Assembly (NCBI GenBank): GCA_964449555.1 | Contig: CAYUZR010000002.1 | Coordinates: 1 to 32,367, forward strand | DNA length: 32,367 bases | Direction of reading: 5' to 3' | From: an uncultured Candidatus Saccharibacteria bacterium | GTDB lineage: Bacteria > Patescibacteriota > Minisyncoccia > Phycocordibacterales > UBA12079 | In this document: one piece after another, positions 415-25,514 of the stretch | Position numbering within the stretch: position 1 is the first letter of the stretch | Layout of the letters: each line of letters begins with the position of its first letter | Made by a program: the position numbers and the translations under genes | Notes under the pieces: generated by a model | Told to the model about the DNA's origin: nothing | What the model saw: only the letters and a program-made list of their open reading frames with translations | Databases searched by the model: none

Positions 415-473
415 GAAAAAACATCAAATTTTAACGGGTCATAAAATGACCCGTTAAAATTTGATGTTTTTTC
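415..473. repeat. perfect 28-bp-stem hairpin (3-nt loop) in the gatB 3' spacer
   Basis: 415-442 gaaaaaacatcaaattttaacgggtcat is the exact reverse complement of 446-473, with loop aaa. An outer partial pairing attgc (407-411) / gcaat (476-480) extends it. Confidence 0.9.
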
Positions 474-1786: not shown

Positions 1787-1990
1787 CTAAGCATCCCCTA
1801 CTTTTAAAACAGATTTAACTGATTCCTTATTTATCACAGGCAAAGTCCCTGGATGTGCCATACACACAGGACAAATGTTTATATTCGGTTTAGTTTCGTC
1901 TGGATCATTCTTCGAGTCACAAAACATCTTTGTGTTTGTCTTCAACTCAGCATGAATTTCCAATCCAATTGTAGGTTTGTATGTACCCAT
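1787..1990 (-). CDS. gatB: GatB N-terminal 67-aa fragment ending in an in-frame TAG
   Basis: MGTYKPTIGLEIHAELKTNTKMFC...CPVCMAHPGTLPVINKESV is the canonical GatB N-terminus. It is in the same frame as 572..1777. Confidence 0.9.
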   Translation of the reverse strand: MGTYKPTIGLEIHAELKTNTKMFCDSKNDPDETKPNINICPVCMAHPGTLPVINKESVKSVLKVGDA

Positions 1991-3096: not shown

Positions 3097-3756
3097 CTAC
3101 TCTACCAATTCATTATCACTGTCTTCTTTATGTTTTTTGCCGTTTTTGTAGAAAAAATAATTGATTATAATCACTGCCACCGCAAAAACAAAAACTAAAA
3201 CGGTTAGAGTTTTGTTTTTTAGAAGAATAAGATCATAACCATAAGCAAAAATAAAAGAAAATGGCATAACTCCAATTAGTGTGGCTAGAAAATACTTTCC
3301 TATTTTTACTTCTGTCAAAAGCCCAATTAGATAACCTAAAATATCAACCGGTATAACCATTCTCAAAAACACGATCCACCAAAAACTAATATCTCTTGGG
3401 ATATAATTATGATATTTTACAATTTGATCTTCTGGAACTAATTTCACCAAAATTGGTCGTCCAACATTTCGGGAGATCCAAAAAGCAACCACAGAACCAA
3501 TTGTCCAACCAATAACAGAATAAATTGCTGTATTAAATGGCCCAAGTAACAAAGCTACAAATGGCACCATTGGGATAACAGTAATTGGGGCAAAAATTGT
3601 GGAAATTGCCATTAAAAATACAAAAGCCAAAACAGAAACAACTGAATTATCTGAAACAAATTGGGTTATATATTCGACAGGAGCATCCCAAAGAACAAAC
3701 ACTAACATTAGTGCTACAAACAAAAGCAAAAATAGATAAGTTGTTTGTTTTAACAT
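3097..3756 (-). CDS. TVP38/TMEM64 (DedA/SNARE-associated-like) family membrane protein
   Basis: About 5-6 hydrophobic helices. Pattern GWTIGSVVAFWISRNVGRP...VIPVDILGYLIGL is typical of the family. Its ATG overlaps the upstream TAA (TAATG). Confidence 0.7.
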   Translation of the reverse strand: MLKQTTYLFLLLFVALMLVFVLWDAPVEYITQFVSDNSVVSVLAFVFLMAISTIFAPITVIPMVPFVALLLGPFNTAIYSVIGWTIGSVVAFWISRNVGRPILVKLVPEDQIVKYHNYIPRDISFWWIVFLRMVIPVDILGYLIGLLTEVKIGKYFLATLIGVMPFSFIFAYGYDLILLKNKTLTVLVFVFAVAVIIINYFFYKNGKKHKEDSDNELVE

Positions 3757-4782: not shown

Positions 4783-5982
4783 TTAATGACTTAATTGTAA
4801 CTCTTTTTCTATTTCTTGTAACCTCTCGTACTTCACCCTCCTAACATCTTGACTCGGTGATCCCGCTTTTATTCCATAAGCACCAATTCCAACAGCTAGA
4901 TCAACAATAAAATCATCCATTGTTTCCCCAGAACGATGTGAGCAAATTATTTTCCAACCAGCCCCACGAGCTAATCTTACGGCATTATAAACTTCTGTAA
5001 GTGTTCCGATTTGATTTGGTTTGATTATCACAGCATTGGCTCGCCTATTTGTCGCATTATCCAAAATACTTTCTGAATTTGTTGTTGTAAGGTCATCCCC
5101 CGCAACTAAAACTTCTAGTTCTCTTGCTTTTGTTATTTCAACAAGTTTTGTAAAAGAATCTAAGTCATTTTCATCAAACGGGTCTTCAATACTTCGCAAA
5201 TTATATTTCTCAACTAAATCAAGATAAACTTGCACCAATTCATCAGAAGAATACTCCCTACCAAAAATCTCATAATTGCCAGTAACTAAGTTACTGGCAA
5301 TTTTATAAAATTCGGAGGCAGCTGAATCAATTGCAATAAATTCATCGTCAGAAATAACACTATTTAATAATTGGAAGGGTTCTTCTATTGTTTCGGTTTT
5401 TGGGGAATAACCCCCCTCATCTCCCATTTCAACTTCTCCATATTTTTCTTTTATAATTTCTCCTATTTTTTTTAATACCTCTTTTGCTCTTTCATAATCA
5501 TCGCAAACTACAATATATTCTTGAAAAGGAGATCTGAAATCACCGTGAGCTCCCCCATTAATAACATTCATAAATAATTTTGGCTGTTTTGGTTGGACCT
5601 GAACACCCGAAATTTCATTTATATATTTCCAAAGAGGTTTTTCTTCTAATTTTGCCCCCAAACGAGTTACGGCCAAACTAACTCCTAAAATTGCATTAGC
5701 ACCTAAATTAGATTTATCTTGTGTACCATCTAATTCAAGCAAAATCTTATCAATTTTCAACGGCTCAACAGCTGAGCCGTTGATTTTTGGTGCAATAATT
5801 TCATCTATATTTTTAATTGCCTGCTCTACTGATACAGGTTTTACTTCCCGAGAACCAGCACTTGTCCCAGAAGGCACAGATGCACTAACACAAACATCAC
5901 CAGAACAAACCTCAACCTCAACTGTCGGCCGACCTTTCGAGTCTCTTATTTCTTTTGCTTTTAGTGATGTTATTTTATTCAT
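4783..5982 (-). CDS. eno: enolase (phosphopyruvate hydratase), short 399-aa form
   Basis: IRDSKGRPTVEVEV...SVPSGTSAGSREV, IKPNQIGTLTE, CSHRSGETMDDFIVDLAVG..GIKAGSPSQDVRRVKYERL. Confidence 0.93.
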   Translation of the reverse strand: MNKITSLKAKEIRDSKGRPTVEVEVCSGDVCVSASVPSGTSAGSREVKPVSVEQAIKNIDEIIAPKINGSAVEPLKIDKILLELDGTQDKSNLGANAILGVSLAVTRLGAKLEEKPLWKYINEISGVQVQPKQPKLFMNVINGGAHGDFRSPFQEYIVVCDDYERAKEVLKKIGEIIKEKYGEVEMGDEGGYSPKTETIEEPFQLLNSVISDDEFIAIDSAASEFYKIASNLVTGNYEIFGREYSSDELVQVYLDLVEKYNLRSIEDPFDENDLDSFTKLVEITKARELEVLVAGDDLTTTNSESILDNATNRRANAVIIKPNQIGTLTEVYNAVRLARGAGWKIICSHRSGETMDDFIVDLAVGIGAYGIKAGSPSQDVRRVKYERLQEIEKELQLSH

Positions 5983-6160: not shown

Positions 6161-6321
6161 AATAATTTCAAAATTGGATGAGATCCAGTTTGGTTTTGTA
6201 AAAAATTACTCGTAGGGTACCGGGTAGCACACCTTCGCTACGCTTCGGGGGGGGTACCCGGTACGCCTCCCTCGTATTTTTTATCAAAACAAAACCGAAG
6301 ATCGCTAATTTTGGAATTATT
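6161..6321. repeat. long imperfect hairpin element A, with a nested 56-nt palindromic core (6209-6264); right end contains the ppsA stop
   Basis: Left end aataatttcaaaattgg (6161-6177) pairs with ctaattttggaattatt (6305-6321) at 15/17 positions, and the arms continue imperfectly inward. The core ctcgtagggtaccgggtagcacaccttcgctacgcttcggggggggtacccggtac recurs inside murB. Confidence 0.8.
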
Positions 6322-10317: not shown

Positions 10318-10349
10318 AAAAAACCCCGAACAGATTACTCTGTTCGGGG
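10318..10349 (-). terminator. intrinsic terminator
   Basis: 10-bp GC-rich stem ccccgaacag (10324-10333) / ctgttcgggg (10340-10349) with a 6-nt loop, then six U on the minus strand (10318-10323). Confidence 0.9.
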
Positions 10350-12732: not shown

Positions 12733-12772
12733 TTTTGTGCATTAAGGAACGATAGTTCCTTAATGCACAAAA
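12733..12772. repeat. perfect 18-bp-stem palindrome 3' of the PaaX-like gene
   Basis: ttttgtgcattaaggaac gata gttccttaatgcacaaaa. A near-copy lies at 13449-13484. Confidence 0.9.
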
Positions 12773-12825: not shown

Positions 12826-13416
12826 TTATTTTTCATCAGAAATTAAATTAAAAAAACTCTTAAGATGAGCTTCATTATCTACAGAATCAGCAATAACAAA
12901 CCGAACAAATTCCCTTGCTTCATAAGTTTCAATAATATAATCTATCTGATTTTTACAATCATACGGATGAACAAAAACACTTTTTTGAAATTCATAAAAA
13001 CCAATTGACTTCAAATGGCTCCACAAAGATTTTCTAACCGACTTTTTTTCTTCAGGGACATCGAAAAGAACAAATCTCCATTTTTTATCCCATTTTTTTG
13101 GTTTCTCTATTTCCATATTATCTATATCATAAGTAATCGCTTTTTTCTTACCCTCATCAGATAAGACAATTGTCACCGTCCCATCTTTATTCTTTTTCTC
13201 TTTGATTACTTTTGACTCATACAAAGCTTTTATCGATCTTTTTAGAAATCTTTTATCAAAATTTTTCCATTCATCAGAAAGTTCATCTACTATTTCAAAT
13301 TGTTTTCCTAAACTTCCAGCCAAACTCAAAGCAACCCCACCCCAAAGTAACAGGGCTATCTTTTTTTGCTTTTTTCCTAACCTTATTCCTTTTAATTTTT
13401 TATTTATTTTAACCAT
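12826..13416 (-). CDS. PaaX-like regulator (winged-helix N-terminal part plus Cas2-like ferredoxin-fold C-terminal part)
   Basis: W-x-W-RFVLFDVPEEKKSVRKSLWSHLKSIGFYEFQKSVFVHPYD matches the PaaX/Cas2-type beta-alpha-beta motif. The N-terminal half has the LSDEG...ITY pattern of PaaX-family wHTH domains. Confidence 0.65.
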   Translation of the reverse strand: MVKINKKLKGIRLGKKQKKIALLLWGGVALSLAGSLGKQFEIVDELSDEWKNFDKRFLKRSIKALYESKVIKEKKNKDGTVTIVLSDEGKKKAITYDIDNMEIEKPKKWDKKWRFVLFDVPEEKKSVRKSLWSHLKSIGFYEFQKSVFVHPYDCKNQIDYIIETYEAREFVRFVIADSVDNEAHLKSFFNLISDEK

Positions 13417-13448: not shown

Positions 13449-13484
13449 TTGTGCATTAAGGGACGATCGTTCTTTAATGCACAA
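13449..13484. repeat. palindrome copy 2, 5' of the PaaX-like gene and 3' of the cupin gene
   Basis: ttgtgcattaagggac gatc gttctttaatgcacaa. The half-site matches 12735-12750 at 15 of 16 positions. Two arm positions are G:T rather than G:C. Confidence 0.85.
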
Positions 13485-14617: not shown

Positions 14618-17166
14618 CCATGACACTTTTTAAATTTTTTGCCACTACCACAGTGACAAGGATCATTCCGCCCAATTTTTTCTTGTTCTGTTTTTACAAT
14701 CGGTTTTTGGACTGAATCTTCTCTTTCACTTCCCTCTTTTTCGGCAATACTTTTAGCTTGTTCTTGGGTTGCTTGTAAATTTTGTTGTTCACGAACAAAA
14801 GCACCTGCTCCCATATTTGGAATAAAATGTAAAATCTTTTCATTAATTACAAATTGCATTTCTTTGAACATTTGCAGACCTTCTTTTTTATATTCAACAA
14901 GTGGATCTCTTTGTCCATAAGCTCGTAAGTTAACAGAAGATCTCAAATAATCCATTACCTCCAAATGTTCCACCCAAAGCGTATCAATTGTTTGTAACAT
15001 TAATCTTCTCATTACAACAAAAAATTCTTCATCACCTAAAATTTCTCTTTTATCAGCAATAGTTTTTTCCATATTTTCTCTTGTTCCAAACTCCTCCTCA
15101 ACATCTACAGTAGCCTTGCTACTGTAGATTTCGTTGAGGATGTTATTTAGGGAATTTTCAACATCTTCATTTTTCCCAAATAAAATTTTTCGTCGTCTTT
15201 CATAAACAATTTTTCTTTGGAAATTCAAAACATCATCGTATTTCAAAACATGTTGTCGTGAATCGAAATTAAAACCTTCTATTTTTTCTTGTGCAGATTC
15301 GAGAGATTTTGTAATAACTCCATTTTTAATAGCTTCATCCTCAGGAATACCTAATCGTCCCATCATATTCTTAACTACATCAGAAGCAAATACCCTCATT
15401 AAAGTATCTTCCATTGAAACAAAAAATTGTGTTTCTCCAGGATCACCTTGACGACCAGAACGACCCCTCAACTGATTATCAATTCTTCGTGATTCATGTC
15501 GTTCTGTCCCTACCACAAAAAGACCTCCAAATTTTTTGATTTCTTCTTTTTGTTCGTCTGTCGCATGGACACCACCAAGTTTAATGTCAACTCCACGACC
15601 AGCCATATTGGTTGCAACCGTCACCTTTCCCTTTTCACCAGCCTGAGCAACAATTTCACCTTCATTATCGTGATTTTTAGCATTTAATACTTCATGTGGA
15701 ATACCCTCAGCACTTAAATATTGAGAAAGTAACTCATTTTTTTCAATAGATACTGTTCCGATTAAAACAGGTTGTCCTTTTTGATTTAATTCTTTGACTT
15801 TTCTTGCTAATGCTCTAAATTTTCCTGTTTCTGTTTGGAAGATTAAATCATTTTGATCAATCCTTTGAATATCCTGATGAGTAGGAATCTCAATAGTTCC
15901 TAGTCCATAGACCTTATGAAATTCTTCAGAAGAAGTCTGAGCGGTTCCCGTCATTCCTGAAAGCTTTTTGTAAAGTCGAAAATAATTTTGAAAAGTAATC
16001 GAAGCAAAAGTCCTCGATTCTTTTTGAACCTCTAATCCTTCTTTGGCTTCAATGGCTTGATGAAGACCTTCAGACCATCGTCTTCCTGGTTGCATTCGTC
16101 CAGTAAACTCGTCAACAATAACAACCTCACCATTTTTTATCACATAATCTTTGTTATTTTCAAAAAGTGCCTTAGCCCGCACAGCTGTTTCAAGGTGATG
16201 CACAGATTTTATTCCTTTATCAGTATAAATATTATCAATTCCCAATGCTTTTTCTGTCTTTTCAATTCCAGCATTCGTCATTTTTATAGCTTTATATTTT
16301 TCTTCAACCTCAAAATCCTGTTCTTTTACCATCGTCTTTGCAATCTGTGCAAATTTTGCATACAAATCTTCTGATTCGGTAGTTGGAGTTGAAATAATTA
16401 AAGGAGTTCGTGATTCATCAATAAGAATAGAATCAACCTCATCAACAATCGCAAAGTTATATTCTCTTTGTCTGATTTCGTTTTTTCTATATTCGATATT
16501 ATCTCTCAGATAATCAAAACCAAACTCGTTGTTAGTTCCATAAGTTATATCTGCTTCATAAGCTTCTTTTCTAGAACAAGGTCTTAAAAATTCTTCAACA
16601 ACTTTATATGAACCCTCTTCGTCTCTTTCTTCATCCATCTCTTTATGATTAGGATCATAAATATATGATGAGTCACTATTTATAACTCCAATAGTAAGAC
16701 CAAGAGCAGAGTAAATTTGCCCCATCCAAACAGCATCCCTTCGTGAAAGATAATCGTTTACAGTAACAACATGGACTCCCTTTCCTCCAAGGGCATTGAG
16801 ATAAACCGGCAATGTTCCTACTAAAGTTTTTCCTTCACCTGTTCTCATCTCTGTAATTTTTCCTTGATGTAAAACAATTCCTCCTATTAACTGAACATCG
16901 TAATGTCTTTCATTAAGGGTTCTTTTTGCTGTTTCTCTAACTACTGCAAAAGCTTCTGGGAGGATATCATCAAGTGTTTCATTTTCTTTTAGTCTTTTTT
17001 TGAATTCCTTTGTCTTATCTTTCAATTCTTCATCAGACAAATTCAAAACACCCTCTTCAAGAGAGTTAATTTTATCAACAATTGGTTGAATCGATTTTAA
17101 GTATTTTTTATTTTCGTCACCGAAAAGTTTCTTTAGTATCTGCATAGTTGAATGCCATTTTAACAT
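14611..17166 (-). CDS. secA: preprotein translocase ATPase SecA
   Basis: MRTGEGKTLV, DEVDSILIDESRTPLIIS, TNMAGRGVDIKLGG, and a C-terminal zinc motif CHCGSGKKFKKCHGK. Family N-termini suggest the real start is the ATG at 17145 (MQILKKLFGDEN). Confidence 0.95.
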   Translation of the reverse strand: MLKWHSTMQILKKLFGDENKKYLKSIQPIVDKINSLEEGVLNLSDEELKDKTKEFKKRLKENETLDDILPEAFAVVRETAKRTLNERHYDVQLIGGIVLHQGKITEMRTGEGKTLVGTLPVYLNALGGKGVHVVTVNDYLSRRDAVWMGQIYSALGLTIGVINSDSSYIYDPNHKEMDEERDEEGSYKVVEEFLRPCSRKEAYEADITYGTNNEFGFDYLRDNIEYRKNEIRQREYNFAIVDEVDSILIDESRTPLIISTPTTESEDLYAKFAQIAKTMVKEQDFEVEEKYKAIKMTNAGIEKTEKALGIDNIYTDKGIKSVHHLETAVRAKALFENNKDYVIKNGEVVIVDEFTGRMQPGRRWSEGLHQAIEAKEGLEVQKESRTFASITFQNYFRLYKKLSGMTGTAQTSSEEFHKVYGLGTIEIPTHQDIQRIDQNDLIFQTETGKFRALARKVKELNQKGQPVLIGTVSIEKNELLSQYLSAEGIPHEVLNAKNHDNEGEIVAQAGEKGKVTVATNMAGRGVDIKLGGVHATDEQKEEIKKFGGLFVVGTERHESRRIDNQLRGRSGRQGDPGETQFFVSMEDTLMRVFASDVVKNMMGRLGIPEDEAIKNGVITKSLESAQEKIEGFNFDSRQHVLKYDDVLNFQRKIVYERRRKILFGKNEDVENSLNNILNEIYSSKATVDVEEEFGTRENMEKTIADKREILGDEEFFVVMRRLMLQTIDTLWVEHLEVMDYLRSSVNLRAYGQRDPLVEYKKEGLQMFKEMQFVINEKILHFIPNMGAGAFVREQQNLQATQEQAKSIAEKEGSEREDSVQKPIVKTEQEKIGRNDPCHCGSGKKFKKCHGK

Positions 17167-17236: not shown

Positions 17237-17716
17237 TTAAGTTGCCTGTTCAATATCTTTGCGAGTTGAAACAATCAATTCTGCATTTCGAAAATAGCAG
17301 TCTTCAGCTAACCAGAAAGTATAACGCATTGGCATACCTTCACGAAGAAGACGGGGTTCAGACACAAGATCTTCTGATAAACCAGCAAATTGTCCATCAG
17401 AACAAAGAGGATAACTCTCACGGCTTGGATCAAAATCGCCATAATGAAGAGAAAAACAAAAATCTATACCTGCGGAAGAAAGAATCTTGTTCAAAAATTT
17501 CATACCGCAATTATGACTAATGTCTCTGATTTCGTCAGAATTATATCCTTCACGCCCATCGACAAGAGTCACTCAAACACTTTTTGTTACTCCTTCAGAT
17601 TTTTCTAAAAGAAAAAGTAAGAGTTGTTTTGCTGATTTTGACCTCTCCTCACCACCTTTCCATTTGAAATTTAGGATGTTTTCTTTAATTTTTGCAATAA
17701 CTTTTTTCTTTTCCAT
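17237..17716 (-). CDS. hypothetical protein with one in-frame TGA (47 aa, TGA at 17573-17575, then 111 more codons)
   Basis: AAGGAG (rc of 17724-17729) lies 7 nt before the ATG at 17716. MEKKKVIAKIKENILNFKWKGGEERSKSAKQLLLFLLEKSEGVTKSV-TGA-VTLVDGREGYNSDEIRDISHNCGMKFLNKILSSAGIDFCFSLHYGDFDPSRESYPLCSDGQ... The track shows only 17237..17572, with GTG read as M. Confidence 0.6.
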
Positions 17717-17769: not shown

Positions 17770-18840
17770 TTACCACTCAACAACTTCAAAGTCAATATCT
17801 AAACCTGTTTTTTGTTTTACATCTTGCTGAATTTTTTGGGCGAGATTTTTTATTTGACTACAAGTGGCGTTTTTGTGGTTAATGAGAATTAGGGGGTGTT
17901 TTTTGTAACATCCTGCGTCCCCTTTCTTGTAACCTTTTAAGTTTAGGATTTTGTCGAGGATGTAAGCAACGGGGATTTTGTAAGTATTACCTTCAATTGC
18001 TCGTAGGGTACCGGGTAGCACCCCTTCGCTACGCTTCGGGGGGTACCCGGTACCCACATCGCACTTATAGTAAGGAATGTCAGGATATTTTTTTAAAAGT
18101 TTATCCAATTGGTTTTTAGTGATAATTGGATTTTTGAAAAAAGAACCAGCTGTTCCTATTTTTTGCCAATTGGGAAGTTTTTCATTCCGAGTCTGAAGAA
18201 TTTCTTTTCTTTTTTCTTTTAAATCTTTTGAAGATGTTTTTTGAAGATTGTAAGCAATTTTCAGAACAATCCAATTTAATTGTTTTTTAAAAACCGAATC
18301 GCGATAACCAAAACGACAGTCTGAGTTTTTTAGTTTTATTATTTTTTTTGTTTCTATATCAAAAACTTCAACCCAATCAACAATATCAGATACTTCTGTT
18401 CCATAAGCCCCAATATTTCCAACAACCGAAGCACCAACTGTTCCGGGAATGCCAGAAAGGTTTTCTAGGCCAGAAAGACCTTGATTAATTGTGTAAACAA
18501 CAAAATCATCCCAGGTCTCTCCTGCTCCTGCTATTATTTGAACAAAATTACTACCAGAAACCGGGTTACTCACTCCGCTTCGCTTCGCAGTAACCCGGTT
18601 TCTGTCCGTAATTTCCATTTTTATCACAAGACCATTGACACCTTTGTCAGAAACAAGGAGGTTGGAACCTCCACCGAGAATATAAACAGGTAGTTGCTTT
18701 CGCTTTGCGAAAGCAACTACCTGTTTTAAATCTTCAATATTTTTCACAACAACAAAATATTTTGCCGGACCACCGATTTTAAAAGTAGTGTGATCTTTTA
18801 GTAAAATGTTTTGTCGAATTTGCATGACTTTAAAAAACAA
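17770..18840 (-). CDS. murB: UDP-N-acetylenolpyruvoylglucosamine reductase MurB carrying two in-frame palindromic insertions
   Basis: LKDHTTFKIGGPAKYF, ILGGGSNLLVSD, GLENLSGIPGTVGASVVGNIGAYG, GSFFKNP, KKHPLILINH. The likely start is the ATG at 18825 (MQIRQN); the track start at 18840 is a TTG. Confidence 0.9.
   Translation of the reverse strand: MFFKVMQIRQNILLKDHTTFKIGGPAKYFVVVKNIEDLKQVVAFAKRKQLPVYILGGGSNLLVSDKGVNGLVIKMEITDRNRVTAKRSGVSNPVSGSNFVQIIAGAGETWDDFVVYTINQGLSGLENLSGIPGTVGASVVGNIGAYGTEVSDIVDWVEVFDIETKKIIKLKNSDCRFGYRDSVFKKQLNWIVLKIAYNLQKTSSKDLKEKRKEILQTRNEKLPNWQKIGTAGSFFKNPIITKNQLDKLLKKYPDIPYYKCDVGTGYPPKRSEGVLPGTLRAIEGNTYKIPVAYILDKILNLKGYKKGDAGCYKKHPLILINHKNATCSQIKNLAQKIQQDVKQKTGLDIDFEVVEW
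17995..18053. repeat. palindromic mini-element copy inside murB (in-frame, 18 codons)
   Basis: aattgctcgtagggtaccgggtagcaccccttcgctacgcttcggggggtacccggtac. Compared with 6204-6264, the 54-nt core (18000-18053) has one substitution and G6 instead of G8, and the 5-nt aatt(g/a) flank has one further change. Confidence 0.9.
18558..18601. repeat. second palindromic mini-element inside murB (13-bp arms, 18-nt loop)
   Basis: aaaccgggttact cactccgcttcgcttcgc agtaacccggttt. The loop shares CGCTTCG with the 18000-18053 element, and CTTCGCAGTAAC with 18986-18997. Confidence 0.85.
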
Positions 18841-21678: not shown

Positions 21679-23509
21679 CGCGACTACTATACATGCGCGC
21701 GAAATATGTCCCCTTCTCTTTAAGAAGTTCATCCGGCGTACCGGATTCAACAACCCGACCATCTTCGAGTACATACAACATATCCATCTCACGGACTGTT
21801 GAGAGCTGATGTGCGATGACACACACGGTAACCTTTCCCTTCAGCTCTTGGATGGTACGCTGGATATGTTGCTCAGATTCTGTATCCAACGCACTTGTCG
21901 CCTCGTCGAGCAAGAGAAGCTGGGGCTTGCGCGCCAAAGCACGCGCGATGGCGATACGCTGACGCTGTCCTGCTGAAAGCATGACACCGCGCTCGCCCAC
22001 CTTTGTGTTAAACCCTTCTGGGAGCTTTTCGATCACATCGTAAATATGCGCCCTCTTTGCCGCTTTTACGACATCTTCGTCGGATACATTTTCATCGAAA
22101 AAGCGAATATTTTCGCGCACCGTGTCATTTATTAAAAAAATATCCTGCGATACATAAGCGATATTTTTACGCCATATATTGATATCAATATTACTCACAG
22201 GTACACCATCCAACACTAAAGCACCTTTGGTCGGCTCGAGAAGTCTCAAAACAATATCAAACAAAGTTGTTTTACCAGAACCTGAGGGACCAATGATCCC
22301 TACCATAGCACCGTATGGAATTGATAAATTAACACCATTCAAAACATCGCCACCTGTATCGTAGGAAAATCCAATATCCTTAAACGCAAGCTCACGCTCA
22401 AATTGAAACGGCTTTGAATACTTTTTCTCTTTTTTATGTCGAACTTCTCGGTGTTTCGACGCCTCCTCACCGTATCTCAATACATTAGATGCGTATGGAG
22501 CCGCATCATTCATATTAAAGAGAATGGTCTGCCCAGACTGTACAGACGCAAAAATACGCTGAACCAAATAAACAATGGCAGCAAGTGCACCAACACTGTA
22601 AGATGTTTCATAATACGCAAACGCAACCACGACCGCAACAAAAATGACGGTAATCGGCTGAATAAAAATTACGACCAATTTCCTCAGCATAAAAGTGCGT
22701 ATATGTAACGCGCGGAATATTGAAAAAAAACTAACACCGATATCAGTAATCTTATCTTCCAAACCCATCGCTTTTACAATCTTCACGCCACCAAGATATT
22801 CATTTACTAGATGCGCAATACGCTTATTCATCTCAGCGGTTTCGCGGGCAGCGACACGACCTTTAGAAAAAACCGGTTTAAACACCAAAAACATCAAGGC
22901 ACCGATTCCTAACGCAAGAAATGTAATTGTTTCTGATATGTTGAGTGCAACAAAAAGATAAATTGCGAGCCCGGAAGCAAACATAATCATTTTCACAAAC
23001 AAATCAAGTAATGCTGCGGTTTGTAGCACATTAATTTTTAAAAGTGTTTCCAGATTTCCCTGTCGCTGTTTTAGGAGATATGGCCAACTTGCATAAAGTG
23101 TTCGCTTAAAAAGACGGTTCATCAAGTCCTCTTGATATTTTGTCTTAAGATGTACCTGTATGTAGTAAAAGGCTAGCAACACCACTGCTTTCAAAGTAAA
23201 AAGTGTCACAATGAGGGCGAGGATCGCAGGTAAAGTAAGCTCAATTCCTGTAAATGAAAAAGTGTTTAAAATCGCCTGTGATATAAAATCGTCTCCGGAC
23301 TGCCCATTTCCGATGAACACAGAAAACAATGGGATAAGCGCACTAATACCAACTGCTTCAAGAATACCACTTAAAAATCCCAATACTAAAAATATAGCCA
23401 CATATCTCCGGTATCCGGCAATCAAGCGCAATATGAGTCTTGCAGCTCTCCCCACCTCACTAAATTTTAGACGTTGCATAGTTAACATATGTATATGTAT
23501 ATTATTCAC
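21674..23509 (-). CDS. ABC exporter, fused permease plus ATPase (MsbA/PglK-like type I exporter)
   Basis: Six-helix TMD, then GPSGSGKTT (Walker A), LSAGQRQRIAIARAL (signature), LLLLDEATSALD (Walker B), IAHQLST (H-loop). The start is uncertain: GTG at 23509, or ATG at 23488 or 23479. Confidence 0.92.
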   Translation of the reverse strand: MNNIHIHMLTMQRLKFSEVGRAARLILRLIAGYRRYVAIFLVLGFLSGILEAVGISALIPLFSVFIGNGQSGDDFISQAILNTFSFTGIELTLPAILALIVTLFTLKAVVLLAFYYIQVHLKTKYQEDLMNRLFKRTLYASWPYLLKQRQGNLETLLKINVLQTAALLDLFVKMIMFASGLAIYLFVALNISETITFLALGIGALMFLVFKPVFSKGRVAARETAEMNKRIAHLVNEYLGGVKIVKAMGLEDKITDIGVSFFSIFRALHIRTFMLRKLVVIFIQPITVIFVAVVVAFAYYETSYSVGALAAIVYLVQRIFASVQSGQTILFNMNDAAPYASNVLRYGEEASKHREVRHKKEKKYSKPFQFERELAFKDIGFSYDTGGDVLNGVNLSIPYGAMVGIIGPSGSGKTTLFDIVLRLLEPTKGALVLDGVPVSNIDINIWRKNIAYVSQDIFLINDTVRENIRFFDENVSDEDVVKAAKRAHIYDVIEKLPEGFNTKVGERGVMLSAGQRQRIAIARALARKPQLLLLDEATSALDTESEQHIQRTIQELKGKVTVCVIAHQLSTVREMDMLYVLEDGRVVESGTPDELLKEKGTYFARMYSSRD

Positions 23510-24323
23510 TCGGTAGAATCTTCAAGCTCCTAGTTATATGTTTATCCGAAGTATGGGCACCCAAAAAAAATTTAAGTGGTCGGATCAAACGCAAAAAATT
23601 ATCCTGCTTCCAGGCAGTATCGTAACTAATTGTATTGAGACGCGATGCGTCATGACGAACTCGACTCCCTCCCGCAATATGCGTCGACGAGGTCGCCGAA
23701 TTCCAGTCTGAAAACGGCGGGAGACCAAATCCTGACATAATCGCTTCGGAAATGCTCTCAGGTGCCGCGCAAAAATCTTTATAACAAAGAGTTGTGTATG
23801 GGATACCAATTTCACGAAGAGAGCGTGTAAAACGTCGTCGTTGCTGTGCCCAGCGCTTGAAGTTGAGCAGATCGCCGATTATCGGCGGGGCGACATCTGT
23901 TCTTCGCATTGAGTACGCCCACGCGCTCGGCTCTTTCATAAGGTACACCGCACGCACATCATACCCAGCAGCTAGAGCAACCTTAGACCCCACTTGAAAG
24001 CCCTCTATGGTTTTCGAAGCGTCTATGACAACACTATACTTCTTTAGCGCGGGAGAATGAAGTACATCATTATACCATCCTTCAAGATTATTAGCAGTAC
24101 GAGGAACCGATGACCAGAATGGACATCCACCGAGAGTTTGGCCACAAGTACACTCGCGCCCTTCTGTTGGGCGAAGTTCTTGACGAGGCATTTCACCTGC
24201 AACTTCGCCAAGCGCTACCGCCCCCGGATATCGCGAAAGGTATGCATTGAGCACAGTAGAGCCACTACGACCAAGGCCAATAATATACAAAAAAAGCTTT
24301 GGGTGTTTGTTTATTTTGTTCAT
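23502..24323 (-). CDS. sulfotransferase-family protein
   Basis: PAPS 5'-phosphosulfate-binding loop IIGLGRSGSTVL near the N-terminus. A later VYLMKEPSAWAYSMRR region sits where the 3'-phosphate-binding motif lies. This is the most GC-rich gene in the window. Confidence 0.7.
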   Translation of the reverse strand: MNKINKHPKLFLYIIGLGRSGSTVLNAYLSRYPGAVALGEVAGEMPRQELRPTEGRECTCGQTLGGCPFWSSVPRTANNLEGWYNDVLHSPALKKYSVVIDASKTIEGFQVGSKVALAAGYDVRAVYLMKEPSAWAYSMRRTDVAPPIIGDLLNFKRWAQQRRRFTRSLREIGIPYTTLCYKDFCAAPESISEAIMSGFGLPPFSDWNSATSSTHIAGGSRVRHDASRLNTISYDTAWKQDNFLRLIRPLKFFLGAHTSDKHITRSLKILPSE

Positions 24324-24341
24324 AATGTGATATTCATAGTA

Positions 24342-25514
24342 TCATTTTTTGTACTCTTTATTAAGTATCTTCTTATATATCTCGTATACCGCCTCATCGA
24401 ACGGCTGTTTATTTTCCATTGCACGACGGGCTTCTTTACTCATCATTTCTACCTTGTCGCGATGATCATAAAGATACTTAATCTTTTCCCCGAGCGACTT
24501 TGCATCACGGACAGGAACCACAAAACCGGTTTTGCCATCTTCGACGATACTCTGCGCATTCTCGGTAGTAACAATTGGTAAACCGCAAGCCATCGCTTCC
24601 ATAACCACCTTCGGATTTCCCTCTGCAAGTGAAGGCAAAGCAAACACTGATGCTTCTCTATAATGTTCTTCCGGTTGTGATGTGTTGCCGACCCATCGTA
24701 TACTCGAATTCTGAGCAATGCGCCTGATGTAACTCTGTTTAAGTTCCTCTGGCATTTCTCCATAACTACCAATAAGAACTAATTCCGCATTCTTTAGATT
24801 CAGTGATTCCCACGCGTCCAAAAGATAGTGCAGACCTTTGTGCAGTTTCGTATATGCGGCATATAGCACTCGAAATGGCTCTTCCTTGGAGCGCGGTTGC
24901 CTAGGTGGCGTAAATCGTTTTATATCAATATCCGTGTTAGCGACAAAAATCCGCTCTGCAGGATACCCCTGTGCAATATAAGAACGCTTCACAAAATCAG
25001 AAATAGCAATGACATAATCAAATTCATTGAGATGCCCACTTGTACGAGCATATTCGGCAAAGAAACCTTTGTATAGAGAGAAGCCAAGTAATCGTGATTC
25101 TTCTCTTTCTAAATCAGCACTGAATTGCATGTGCCCATTCCTTGTGATATCAACCGTAATGGAGCCGTTTTTTTGCGACTTTCGCAAAGTTCGCGGCAAA
25201 AAACGTCCGTCATGAAATAGAACTACATCGGTTTTTTGTAGCCGATATTGAGTGCAAAAATCAAAACGCTCTTCCCGCTGTCTTCGAGAGGGAAATGTAA
25301 GATTGAAAGCTTTCTCCACCCCCCTAAAGAAGTAATGAATAATGGTTGGTATGGCCTGTACGGTATTTTTAAAATAAAAATCCGTATTAGTCCTACAAAT
25401 AACCTGGGTCAATTCACCTGTTTTTGAAAAAACATTGATGACGGGCAAAATATTAGCTGTGGGATGACTTGTCTTCTTTCCCAAATCTGCGAATGTGATG
25501 ACGGAAATCGACAT
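24342..25514 (-). CDS. GT4-family glycosyltransferase (Glycos_transf_1), paralogue of 29795..30949
   Basis: LPSLAEGNPKVVMEAMACGLPIVTTENAQSIVEDGKTGFVV is the E-x7-E GT4 C-terminal motif. TGA stop. Confidence 0.88.
   Translation of the reverse strand: MSISVITFADLGKKTSHPTANILPVINVFSKTGELTQVICRTNTDFYFKNTVQAIPTIIHYFFRGVEKAFNLTFPSRRQREERFDFCTQYRLQKTDVVLFHDGRFLPRTLRKSQKNGSITVDITRNGHMQFSADLEREESRLLGFSLYKGFFAEYARTSGHLNEFDYVIAISDFVKRSYIAQGYPAERIFVANTDIDIKRFTPPRQPRSKEEPFRVLYAAYTKLHKGLHYLLDAWESLNLKNAELVLIGSYGEMPEELKQSYIRRIAQNSSIRWVGNTSQPEEHYREASVFALPSLAEGNPKVVMEAMACGLPIVTTENAQSIVEDGKTGFVVPVRDAKSLGEKIKYLYDHRDKVEMMSKEARRAMENKQPFDEAVYEIYKKILNKEYKK

What the first reader, a model, noticed from the sequence alone, without database searches (positions are those of the whole stretch)
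17995..18601. Two palindromic mini-elements sit in-frame inside murB; one is a near-copy of an intergenic element 11.8 kb away
Positions 18000-18053 (ctcgtagggtaccgggtagcaccccttcgctacgcttcggggggtacccggtac) match 6209-6264 except for one substitution (c/a) and a G6 versus G8 run. The coding copy is exactly 54 nt (18 codons), and its palindromic arms are gtaccgggta / tacccggtac. It is translated as VGTGYPPKRSEGVLPGTL within ..PYYKCD-[..]-RAIEGNTYKIPVAYILD...

A second element at 18558-18601 has 13-bp arms aaaccgggttact / agtaacccggttt and a loop containing the same CGCTTCG. It is translated as RNRVTAKRSGVSNPVSG within ..VIKMEITD-[..]-SNFVQIIAGAG...

Both peptides share a KRS[GE] core, because they come from the same loop sequence. 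From my recollection of E. coli and S. aureus MurB, both sites correspond to short surface connections. These are the segment before the IIAGxG strand and the segment between the P.YP.. stretch and the K.AAGWLID helix. This MurB is about 15 and 18-20 residues longer at those two sites.

This is the behaviour described for Rickettsia palindromic elements (RPEs): selfish hairpin repeats that insert in-frame and are tolerated as extra peptide loops. I am not aware of an equivalent description for this kind of AT-rich small genome.
Basis: partly seen in the sequence, partly recalled or inferred. Interest (0 to 1): 0.78.

Follow-up and report, generated by a model that had tools for sequence, protein, structure and literature searches.

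The report
Translated DNA hairpins crowd CPR murB
In a tiny-genome (Patescibacteria/CPR) bacterium, the cell-wall gene murB carries three near-perfect DNA hairpins: two are copies of a repeated GC-rich hairpin translated as extra surface loops, and the third lies in ordinary coding sequence yet stays a hairpin in all 12 relatives examined, which is unusual for a bacterial gene.

Summary
murB (17770-18825, minus strand) holds el1 (17995-18060) and el2 (18545-18614). el1 has a near-identical intergenic copy (6204-6264). Independent assemblies contain all three, so assembly error is excluded.

Both elements share a variable, complementary stem and a conserved apex, G[AG]AGC-NNN-GCG[AG]AG, which contains a d(GCGNAGC) mini-hairpin and encodes K-R-S-G/E. 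They add about 10 and 22 residues at two loops. These are the only low-confidence parts of an otherwise confident MurB model.

The RPE-like reading is partly supported. The unit is copied with an asymmetric tail, and el1 has a REP-like CT-C-GTAG tag. Relatives carry other hairpin families at the same three sites. Two relatives have a RAYT-like Y1 transposase directly downstream of murB; the window has none.

- A third, perfect 20-bp palindrome (18684-18726) is not an insertion. It is kept in 12 of 12 relatives, with compensatory changes in 12 of 21 pairs.
- murB is a gene-specific hot spot: 21 long perfect palindromes in 8 genes versus 0.15 expected. Neighbouring genes are at background.
- The hairpins stay complementary, unlike decaying RPEs.

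Verdict: a new variant of known kinds (intragenic REP/RPE, plus "coding palindromes" known from hairworm mitochondria). The copying and maintenance mechanisms are inferred.

The parts
17770..18825 (-). murB (UDP-N-acetylenolpyruvoylglucosamine reductase), 351 aa, intact; host gene of three hairpins
   Evidence: Pfam FAD_binding_4 + MurB_C. AF2 model pLDDT 90.6; TM 0.85-0.88 to P. aeruginosa MurB 4jb1. Identical protein on independent contigs.
17995..18060 (-). el1: GC-rich hairpin unit in murB loop site 3. Perfect core 18006-18055, 12-nt arms. Apex GAAGCGTAGCGAAG on the coding strand. On the + strand a 5' tail AATTGCTC-GTAG precedes the stem. Translated as ..CDVGTGYPPKRSEGVLPGTLRAI..
   Evidence: About 22 extra residues versus PDB MurB. 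Residues 256-280 have pLDDT 42-53.
18545..18614 (-). el2: hairpin unit in murB loop site 1. Perfect core 18555-18604, 16-nt arms; outer arms 26 nt at 88%. Apex GAAGCGAAGCGGAG. Tail CTG-GTAG-TAA on the coding strand. Translated as ..EITDRNRVTAKRSGVSNPVSGSNF..
   Evidence: The 46-nt core is identical in L003. Codons 61-105 are 91-98% nt-identical versus the 75% gene average. About 10 extra residues. Residues ~80-93 have low pLDDT.
18684..18726 (-). pal3: perfect palindrome (20-nt arms, 3-nt loop) encoding native MurB residues 34-48 (KQVVAFAKRKQLPVY; helix 30-42 plus strand 47-50). Not an insertion.
   Evidence: Present in 12/12 clade members: 96.4% of cells paired, 12/21 pairs with changes on both sides, 0/500 shuffles reach this. 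Absent from ~20 other Patescibacteria murB. pLDDT 97-98.
6204..6264 (-). el1b: intergenic copy of el1, ~50 nt downstream of the PPDK-like gene's stop and upstream of enolase. Same orientation relative to transcription as el1.
   Evidence: Identical in four independent assemblies L218-L221.
5754..5783 (-). Coding palindrome in enolase (11-nt arms; INGSAVEPLK). Shares a 16-nt core, TTTTCAACGGCTCAAC, with the 'FSTAQLVE' palindrome family found in murB of relatives.
5274..5302 (-). Second coding palindrome in enolase (14-nt arms, 1-nt loop).
15103..15129 (-). Coding palindrome in secA (12-nt perfect arms; 23 nt at 83%). Not conserved in relatives' secA.

Best explanation
**What they are.** el1 and el2 belong to one family of GC-rich (56-70% GC in a 35% GC genome), very stable DNA hairpins. 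The family has two parts. The 12-16-bp stem varies in sequence but stays complementary. The 14-nt apex, G[AG]AGC-NNN-GCG[AG]AG, is conserved; its centre is the d(GCGNAGC) "mini-hairpin" flanked by G/A residues.

**How they spread (inferred).** The unit is copied to new places as a discrete piece: the hairpin plus a short asymmetric tail. In el1 the tail is CT-C-GTAG immediately 5' of the stem, the layout of a REP. The most likely route is as folded single-stranded DNA through a REP/RAYT-type (Y1 HUH transposase) reaction.

**Why they survive in murB (partly shown).** Copies persist only where the protein tolerates them, which is three variable surface loops. They also need a length that is a multiple of three and an open reading frame. 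They are then translated into extra, probably disordered loop residues, and the apex gives K/E-R-S-G/E.

**How they stay hairpins (inferred).** After arrival the two arms are kept complementary, by arm-to-arm correction (replication template switching) and/or by selection. The same maintenance keeps a third palindrome (pal3), which lies in ordinary coding sequence, as a hairpin in all 12 relatives.

**Shown:** the family, its covariation, the unlinked near-identical copy, loop placement, the intact frame, and the murB-specific enrichment.

**Inferred:** transposase-mediated copying, translation of the inserts, and the correction mechanism.
For: **One family.**
- The shared apex and the helix are supported by compensatory changes in 10 of 17 pairs across 8 copies from 4 sources.
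- L216 has the same apex with an unrelated stem.
- GCGNAGC mini-hairpins melt at 70-76 °C (PMC13037366).

**Copy-paste of a defined unit.**
- el1 and el1b match at 57 of 59 positions plus a 2-nt indel. The match includes a 12-nt tail on one side only.
- The two el2-type copies in L004 share non-complementary flanks, ATGGRCRG.. and ..CTGGTAGTGA.

**REP-like traits.**
- GTAG lies directly 5' of the el1 stem in both copies, with a CT 1 nt upstream. This is the layout and cleavage dinucleotide described for REP/TnpA_REP (PMC8266576).
- el1b lies ~50 nt downstream of an ORF.
- The same apex pattern occurs in many extragenic hairpins in metagenomes.

**RAYT-like genes exist in this lineage.**
- Y1_Tnp scores 39.5 and 37.9 bits, and the only NCBIfam hit is REP_Tyr_transpos. 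The gene lies directly downstream of murB in L214 and L217 and is flanked by its own palindrome.
- In L016 a homologue is flanked by a hairpin family that also occurs 4.6 kb away.

**Loops and frame.**

**Maintenance.**
- pal3 covaries.
- murB has 21 palindromes against 0.15 expected from synonymous-codon shuffles.
- Template switching is known to conserve perfect inverted repeats (PMC5941160).
Against: - No Y1/RAYT gene is in the 32-kb window (tblastn).
- In L214 and L217 the transposase is flanked by a different palindrome, and those two murB genes are not the richest in hairpins.
- el2-type copies have GTAG 3' of the stem on the coding strand, not 5'.
- No target-site duplication was found.
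- Only three family copies are visible, so genome-wide copy number is unknown.
- The inserts are not clean additions. At each site they partly replace variable native residues.
- Some site-3 hairpins in relatives (L004, L210) look like fold-backs of the native sequence AAAGTGG rather than imports.
- Random transposition with loop tolerance does not predict a hot spot confined to murB.
- Translation of the inserts is not shown by any protein data.
Confidence: 0.5

Rival explanations
1. **Home-grown palindromes, no transposase.** Hairpins arise and lengthen in place through replication template switching (fold-back copying), nucleated at mini-hairpin seeds such as GCGAAGC. They are kept perfect by the same process. 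Similar copies at other sites (el1b, the second L004 copy, the enolase core) come from ectopic templated repair or gene conversion. The lineage would be prone to this because its reduced genome lacks palindrome-surveillance nucleases.
For: - pal3 sits in native coding sequence and was kept at 19-21 bp in 12/12 genes with double changes.
- Site-3 hairpins of L004 and L210 share their left arm with the 'empty' allele of L211 (GAA AGT GG..) and look like its inverted copy.
- The FSTAQLVE family has a conserved core but species-specific outer arms that are still perfectly complementary, up to 34 nt. This fits outward growth.
- Many apexes are GC-GAA-GC or GC-TTC-GC.
- Mismatches show no strand bias: G.T 7 versus A.C 6.
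- Precedents exist: template switching conserves perfect inverted repeats (PMC5941160), and repeat conversion was proposed for coding palindromes in Nematomorpha mitochondria (PMC6649704).
Against: - A genome-wide mutational bias should affect all genes, yet secA, wzy and pif1 are at background.
- el1/el1b and the L004 pair share asymmetric, non-palindromic tails, which fold-back synthesis does not produce.
- Absence of SbcCD, ExoI or ExoVII was not tested.
Confidence: 0.25
2. **Selected cis-acting structures.** The hairpins are kept because they act on murB itself, for example mRNA stabilisers, RNase III sites or translation-coupled attenuators. Alternatively they act on the DNA, for example as priming or protein-binding hairpins. 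The inserted peptides would then be a by-product.
For: - The enrichment is gene-specific and the positions are conserved: pal3, site 1, pal4 and site 3 recur at the same codons across relatives with different sequences.
- The el2 region is far more conserved at the DNA level (91-98%) than the rest of murB (75%) between the window and L003.
- pal3 is flanked by an A-run and a T-run, like a bidirectional terminator, in most relatives.
Against: - There is no Rfam family.
- pal3 and el1b are not called by the terminator scan.
- The near-perfect Watson-Crick pairing, with no excess of G.U over A.C, is not what RNA-level selection usually leaves.
- Hairpin number, size and family differ widely between close relatives.
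- The intergenic copy and the enolase and secA palindromes lie outside murB.
Confidence: 0.17
3. **Not translated.** The hairpin segments are removed or bypassed (intron-like excision, or translational hopping as for byp elements of Magnusiomyces mitochondria), so MurB lacks the extra residues.
For: - Stable hairpins inside ORFs are bypassed in Magnusiomyces mitochondria, as cited in PMC6649704.
- No proteomic data were available here.
Against: - Every coding copy is a multiple of three in length and stop-free in the frame used. Only 3 of 6 (el2) or 4 of 6 (el1) frames are open.
- The intergenic copy has a G8 run while the coding copy has G6, which preserves the frame.
- pal3 encodes indispensable conserved residues.
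- No Rfam intron match was found.
Confidence: 0.03
4. **Artefact or dead gene.** The palindromes are assembly or amplification chimeras, or murB is a decaying pseudogene.
For: The window has in-frame stops in gatB, a PPDK-like gene and one hypothetical ORF.
Against: - Identical murB DNA occurs in independent ENA and JGI assemblies, and el1b occurs in four more.
- Hairpins lie at the same codons in 12 species from NCBI, ENA, JGI and Logan assemblies.
- The murB ORF is intact, family-invariant residues are kept, and the model is confident.
- The gatB and PPDK stops are absent from sibling strains.
Confidence: 0.02

Closest known systems
Rickettsia palindromic elements (RPE; Ogata et al. 2000, 2002, as summarised in PMC10969869)
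   Same: Both are a repeated palindromic DNA family found in spacers and, in-frame, inside housekeeping genes of a reduced genome. Both are read through as an extra peptide placed at a tolerant surface site.
   Different: - RPEs are ~100-150 bp, these are 50-70 nt.
- RPEs lose repeat identity with time (PMC6649704 discussion), whereas these stems stay complementary with compensatory changes.
- Here one gene (murB) is a hot spot.
- No sequence homology was tested.
REP / RAYT systems, including GTAG-tagged REPs found inside genes (PMC3733652; PMC8266576)
   Same: - Both are short, G+C-rich stem-loops.
- el1 has GTAG directly 5' of the stem and a CT just upstream.
- A loop or apex conserved while stems vary matches what group-3 TnpA_REP recognises.
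- The extragenic copy lies just downstream of an ORF.
- In-frame intragenic REPs encoding 20-30 residues are documented.
- RAYT-like Y1 genes flanked by hairpins exist in relatives.
   Different: - The hairpins here are longer, with a 14-nt structured apex.
- el2 lacks a 5' GTAG.
- No RAYT lies in the window, and the hairpins flanking the RAYT-like genes in relatives belong to another family.
- The high copy number that defines REPs was not shown.
- Most visible copies are intragenic.
[quoted passage not shown]
   Same: - Both are perfect inverted repeats embedded in functional protein-coding genes, with both arms encoding needed residues (pal3).
- Both show a nearly binary perfect-or-absent pattern that suggests active arm-to-arm conversion.
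- Both show dynamic gain and loss between species.
   Different: - This case is bacterial and chromosomal, not mitochondrial.
- The arms are 10-34 nt, not up to 284 bp.
- The palindromes are concentrated in one gene.
- They are mixed with a dispersed repeat family.
- pal3 is position-conserved across 12 species rather than scattered.
MITEs, and GC-cluster / byp hairpin elements of yeast mitochondria (own knowledge; byp cited in PMC6649704)
   Same: Both are small non-autonomous hairpin-forming inserts that can land in coding regions of AT-rich genomes.
   Different: - There are no terminal inverted repeats distinct from the hairpin and no target-site duplication.
- The inserts here keep the frame and lack stops, so there is no sign of translational bypass.

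Membership tests
Rickettsia palindromic elements (RPE) | Sequence homology to one of the described RPE families | not testable with these tools
   No Rickettsia sequences or RPE models were available. Rfam has no matching family.
Rickettsia palindromic elements (RPE) | Repeated palindromic element present both in spacers and in-frame in ORFs, translated as an added peptide at a tolerant site | tested here: met
   - el1 lies in murB and el1b in a spacer.
- L004 has two el2-type copies in murB.
- The frame is kept and the inserts sit in loops of low pLDDT.
- Translation itself is inferred.
Rickettsia palindromic elements (RPE) | Many copies per genome spread over unrelated genes | not testable with these tools
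   - Only 32 kb of the genome is held, and it has 3 family copies.
- Peptide searches returned nothing.
REP / RAYT (GTAG-tagged REP) | Conserved GTAG (or CGTC) tetranucleotide at the 5' end of the palindrome | tested here: inconclusive
   - el1 and el1b have CT-C-GTAG directly 5' of the stem on the + strand.
- el2-type copies have a conserved GGTAGT 3' of the stem on the coding strand and no 5' GTAG on either strand.
REP / RAYT (GTAG-tagged REP) | Cognate RAYT (Y1 HUH transposase) in the genome, typically flanked by the REPs | tested here: inconclusive
   - None is in the window.
- RAYT-like genes lie next to murB in L214 and L217, and one is present in L016. Pfam Y1_Tnp is above its cut-off; NCBIfam REP_Tyr_transpos scores 39-46 bits, below its cut-off of 80.
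- They are flanked by other palindrome families.
REP / RAYT (GTAG-tagged REP) | High copy number, predominantly extragenic, downstream of ORFs | tested here: not met
   - In the sequence held, 2 of 3 window copies are intragenic, as are all copies in L003, L004 and L216.
- Genome-wide numbers are unknown.
- Related-apex hairpins in other metagenome contigs are extragenic.
MITE | Terminal inverted repeats plus target-site duplication | tested here: not met
   - The whole unit is one hairpin.
- A CTCGTA direct repeat flanks only the intergenic copy, not the murB copy.
- No consistent duplication is present.
Coding palindromes (Nematomorpha-type) | Perfect inverted repeat inside a functional CDS whose two arms both encode conserved protein, kept perfect across species | tested here: met
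   - This applies to pal3: residues 34-48, pLDDT 97-98.
- It forms 19-21 bp with 0-2 mismatches in 12/12 genes, and 12/21 pairs show double changes.
- Synonymous-codon shuffles give 0.15 palindromes against 21 observed in 8 murB genes.
- It does not apply to el1 and el2, whose arms encode added loop residues.
Intrinsic terminator / known RNA family | Match to an Rfam model, or to the stem plus T-tract consensus | tested here: not met
   - There is no Rfam hit at gathering score, only generic miRNA-hairpin noise.
- el1, el1b, el2 and pal3 are not among the terminator-like sites.

The most novel reading that the evidence does not exclude
A clade of Paceibacteria (CPR) actively maintains an array of position-conserved, almost perfectly paired DNA hairpins inside the coding sequence of one essential gene, murB. 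The array includes a 20-bp hairpin written into a conserved helix-strand of the enzyme.

This would be a bacterial counterpart of the "coding palindromes" so far described only in hairworm mitochondria. The gene specificity would point to one of two causes:
- a dedicated function, such as hairpin-dependent control of cell-wall precursor synthesis; or
- a local hairpin-processing activity, such as the RAYT-like transposase that sits beside murB in some members.

On this reading the hairpins are not merely tolerated selfish DNA.
Probability: 0.3. Interest if true: 0.85.

Novelty: new variant of a known kind. Interest (0 to 1): 0.7.

Why it matters
Three points would matter if this holds up.

1. 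**Reach of in-frame repeats.** In-frame "selfish" hairpin repeats, textbook for Rickettsia and noted for some REPs, would also shape proteins in the Candidate Phyla Radiation. This may explain some of the many odd insertions and length differences seen in CPR proteins: MurB in close relatives ranges from 333 to 468 aa.

2. **Dual coding.** pal3 is a clean natural example of a sequence that satisfies a protein fold and a 20-bp nucleic-acid helix at once, with 12 species of covariation. It could be used to study dual coding and arm-to-arm correction in bacteria.

3. **A testable hot spot.** The murB-only enrichment and the neighbouring RAYT-like gene give a concrete handle on how REP-type hairpins are made and kept. 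That question is still open even in E. coli.

In practice, such hairpins can mislead gene callers, alignments, structure prediction and assemblers for CPR genomes.

Tried and rejected
- **Alternative genetic code (UGA sense).** Rejected as the cause of the split genes. The internal stops are TAG/TAA, and TGA is not enriched inside ORFs.
- **Rfam.** Nothing at gathering score, only generic hairpin noise at E-value level. No tRNA or tmRNA.
- **Terminator reading.** The scan does not call el1b, el1, el2 or pal3.
- **Genome-contig scan with the MurB alignment.** It was useful as negative controls for pal3 but missed the source genome.
- **Metagenome pattern scan.** It stopped at 120 stretches. The hits are a mix of chance matches in GC-rich DNA and true extragenic hairpins with the same apex. 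No further contig of the source organism was returned.
- **Peptide searches for other proteins carrying the inserts.** The word index found no candidate. A 32-aa phmmer search of 1.84 billion representatives gave no hit at E ≤ 0.001. Both are uninformative rather than negative.
- **Sense-strand G.U excess.** An early hint from 8 sequences suggested RNA-level folding. It disappeared with 12 genes (7 versus 6).
- **Target-site duplications.** None consistent.
- **Clustered substitutions that create the gatB and PPDK stops.** They do not make or perfect palindromes.
- **ORFs downstream of murB in the window and most relatives.** They show no similarity to the Y1 transposase.
Full report
**1. What is in the sequence**

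The ORF at window 17770-18825 (minus strand) is MurB: Pfam FAD_binding_4 plus MurB_C. Its translation contains the two quoted peptides.

Positions 18000-18053 match 6209-6264 with one substitution and a G6/G8 length difference. The match actually begins at AATT[G/A]CTCGTAG (17995 / 6204). The stem 11-mer occurs 6 times, against 0.10 expected.

The inverted-repeat scan shows that el1 has 12-nt perfect arms. el2 has 16-nt perfect arms and 26-nt arms at 88%.

The organism is a Patescibacteria (CPR) bacterium of the Paceibacteria type, judged from the names attached to the closest MurB homologues. The window is 29-44% GC, and nearly all genes lie on the minus strand.

**2. Not an artefact**

- The exact MurB protein is encoded on independent ENA and JGI contigs. 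L002 is 100% identical over 5.6 kb. L001 differs only at a scaffold gap of Ns.
- The enolase look-up returned four more independent contigs, 99.5-99.96% identical to the window. All of them carry the intergenic copy unchanged.

**3. Are el1 and el2 insertions?**

- Against solved P. aeruginosa MurB, the window protein has about 10 extra residues at site 1 (el2) and about 22 at site 3 (el1).
- In an alignment of 30 close homologues, the family shows three length-variable hot spots. They lie after MEIKG, before the L..REII helix, and between YP.LP.F and KIPLA. Different relatives carry different inserts there.
- An AlphaFold2 model built on 119 sequences has mean pLDDT 90.6 and superposes on MurB structures with TM 0.85-0.88.
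- Its low-confidence stretches are residues ~80-93 and 256-280, which are the two element-encoded peptides; only 259-275 falls below pLDDT 50.
The additions are not clean, because part of each hairpin replaces variable native residues.

**4. One hairpin family**

I aligned el1, el1b and el2 with five other copies: the orthologous copies in L003 (GCA_964608745.1), two copies in L004, and one from an IMG/VR contig (L089). All share a 14-nt apex, G[AG]AGC-NNN-GCG[AG]AG, and an ACCGG..CCGGT stem base. Ten of 17 consensus pairs show compensatory changes. In L216 the same apex tops an unrelated stem.

The apex explains the shared K/E-R-S-G/E core. Its centre, GCGAAGC or GCGTAGC, is the d(GCGNAGC) mini-hairpin. 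That motif has Tm 70-76 °C, is nuclease-resistant and binds SSB poorly (PMC13037366).

**5. Evidence for copying of a unit**

- el1 and el1b share a 12-nt tail on one side only. In L004 the two el2-type copies, at murB sites 1 and 2, share non-complementary flanks. Fold-back synthesis would not produce such asymmetric shared tails.
- On the + strand, el1 reads CT-C-GTAG-stem. This is the arrangement of a REP, with its guide tetranucleotide and the CT cleavage dinucleotide (PMC8266576).
- el2 does not have a 5' GTAG.
- For el2-type units 3 of 6 frames are open. For el1 4 of 6 are open. All coding copies use the frame that gives KRS.

**6. Relatives and a transposase**

Eleven syntenic relatives were fetched, plus L013 from the genome scan.

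- In L214 and L217 the gene directly downstream of murB is a Y1 (IS200-like) transposase. Pfam scores are 39.5 and 37.9 bits, above the cut-off. Its only NCBIfam match is "REP-associated tyrosine transposase", below that model's cut-off.
- It has HUH and YxxxYIHxNP-type motifs and is bracketed by copies of one palindrome, TGTGCTAAGCT[AT]AGCTTAGCACA.
- A homologue in L016 is likewise bracketed by a hairpin family. That family has another copy 4.6 kb away.
- REP/RAYT-type systems therefore exist in this lineage. None is in the window, and none was seen next to an el-type hairpin.

**7. What the RPE picture does not cover**

*(a) pal3.* It encodes native residues 34-48, a helix and a strand with pLDDT 97-98. 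Yet it forms a 19-21-bp hairpin, centred on the same Ala-Lys codons, in 12 of 12 clade members.
- 96.4% of cells are paired.
- 12 of 21 pairs have changes on both sides.
- 0 of 500 shuffles reach this, and slid registers give 40-56% pairing.
- About 20 other Patescibacteria murB genes have nothing longer than 8 nt there.

*(b) murB is a hot spot.* The table counts perfect palindromes with arms of 11 nt or more.

| Gene | Genes examined | Length | Observed | Expected from synonymous-codon shuffles |
|---|---|---|---|---|
| murB | 8 | 8.8 kb | 21 | 0.15 |
| secA | 6 | 15 kb | 1 | 0.12 |
| wzy-TPR | 5 | 11 kb | 1 | 0.07 |
| pif1 | 4 | 6.6 kb | 0 | 0.03 |

*(c) Other families occupy the same sites in relatives.* One is the "FSTAQLVE" family, with 26-34-nt arms. 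Its core is conserved. Its outer arms are species-specific yet still perfectly complementary. The window's enolase carries 16 nt of that core.

*(d) Stems do not decay.* The 46-nt el2 core is identical between the window and L003. The surrounding 45 codons are 91-98% identical, against 75% for the gene.

*(e) No strand bias.* Mismatches show no G.T-over-A.C bias (7 versus 6). Nothing singles out the mRNA strand.

**8. Interpretation**

The best-supported account has two layers.

- *Layer 1.* A REP-like hairpin family is copied as a unit and survives in murB only in tolerant loops and in an open frame.
- *Layer 2.* The lineage keeps hairpin arms complementary. The documented process that does this is template switching between inverted-repeat arms (PMC5941160). 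The same idea was proposed for the only comparable case I found, the coding palindromes of Nematomorpha mitochondria (PMC6649704).

The murB specificity remains unexplained. A local activity is one lead: the murB-secA spacer is a variable slot that holds a RAYT-like gene in two relatives. A function of the hairpins in murB expression is another.

**9. Literature and novelty**

Full-text searches for palindromic or REP/RAYT elements in Patescibacteria or CPR found nothing relevant. "Coding palindromes" returned only the Rickettsia and Nematomorpha literature.

I therefore rate this a new variant of known kinds rather than a new category.

**10. Limits**

- Only 32 kb of the genome was available.
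- Copy number, the presence of a RAYT elsewhere, the nuclease repertoire, transcription and translation are all untested.

Noticed in passing
window 1787-1789 (gatB), ~8351 and ~8339 (PPDK/PEP-synthase-like gene), 17237-17716 (hypothetical ORF): In-frame stop codons split gatB (TAG) and the PPDK-like gene (two TAA). The ORF after murB has an in-frame TGA. Sibling assemblies have intact GatB of 472 aa (L218, L219, L221) and intact PPDK of 790 aa (L218). The window differs from them by 8 clustered substitutions in 10.4 kb, mostly T to A on the coding strand. L220 also has a split gatB. The cause is either strain-level pseudogenisation or consensus errors.
   Followed up: partly
window 12733-12772 and 13449-13484 (flanking ORF 12826-13416): A PaaX_M-domain gene is bracketed on both sides by the same palindrome (TTGTGCATTAAGG.AC..). 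The same arrangement recurs in L211 and L213 with species-specific palindromes. It may be an operator pair or a small mobile module.
   Followed up: partly
L214 4209-4865 and L217 11128-11811; L016 ~1800-2369: RAYT-like Y1 transposase genes occur in Paceibacteria relatives. Two lie directly downstream of murB. Each is flanked by its own palindromic repeat. In L016 the repeat family has further copies kilobases away.
   Followed up: partly
L210 471-540; L212 10256-10316 and 10704-10765; L213 10679-10748: Relatives' murB genes contain in-frame perfect palindromes with 26-34-nt arms (peptide ..DF.E.NFSTAQLVEPLKN..). The core is shared, and the outer arms are variable but perfectly complementary.
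   Followed up: partly
L004 1324-1342, L210 767-789, L213 10511-10537, L214 ~3545-3569 (murB codons ~165-180, K[LI]TG..C.F): A second position-conserved coding hairpin (pal4, 9-12 bp) occurs in four relatives with different sequences. It is not evident in the window.
   Followed up: no
window 415-473: A perfect palindrome with 28-nt arms and a 3-nt loop lies ~100 nt downstream of gatB.
   Followed up: no
window 10324-10349; L003 15375-15406: A conserved terminator-like hairpin, CCCCGAACAG..CTGTTCGGGG followed by a T-run, lies upstream of the DUF4147/MOFRL gene in both species.
   Followed up: no
L090-L209 (metagenome hits), e.g. L106, L163, L190, L154: A widespread extragenic hairpin subfamily, TAACG-stem-GGAGCGAAGCGGAG-stem-TTGTTA, has the same apex and occurs in contigs of 36-60% GC. 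Near-identical copies occur at fixed loci in human-gut contigs. In L154 one lies just upstream of what looks, by eye from its sequence (not scanned against any family library), like an IS110-type transposase ORF.
   Followed up: partly
window 22000-25000: GC content rises to 0.40-0.44, against 0.29-0.36 in most of the window. The region spans the ABC transporter gene and the adjacent ORFs at 23502-25514 (not scanned). It is possibly of foreign origin.
   Followed up: no
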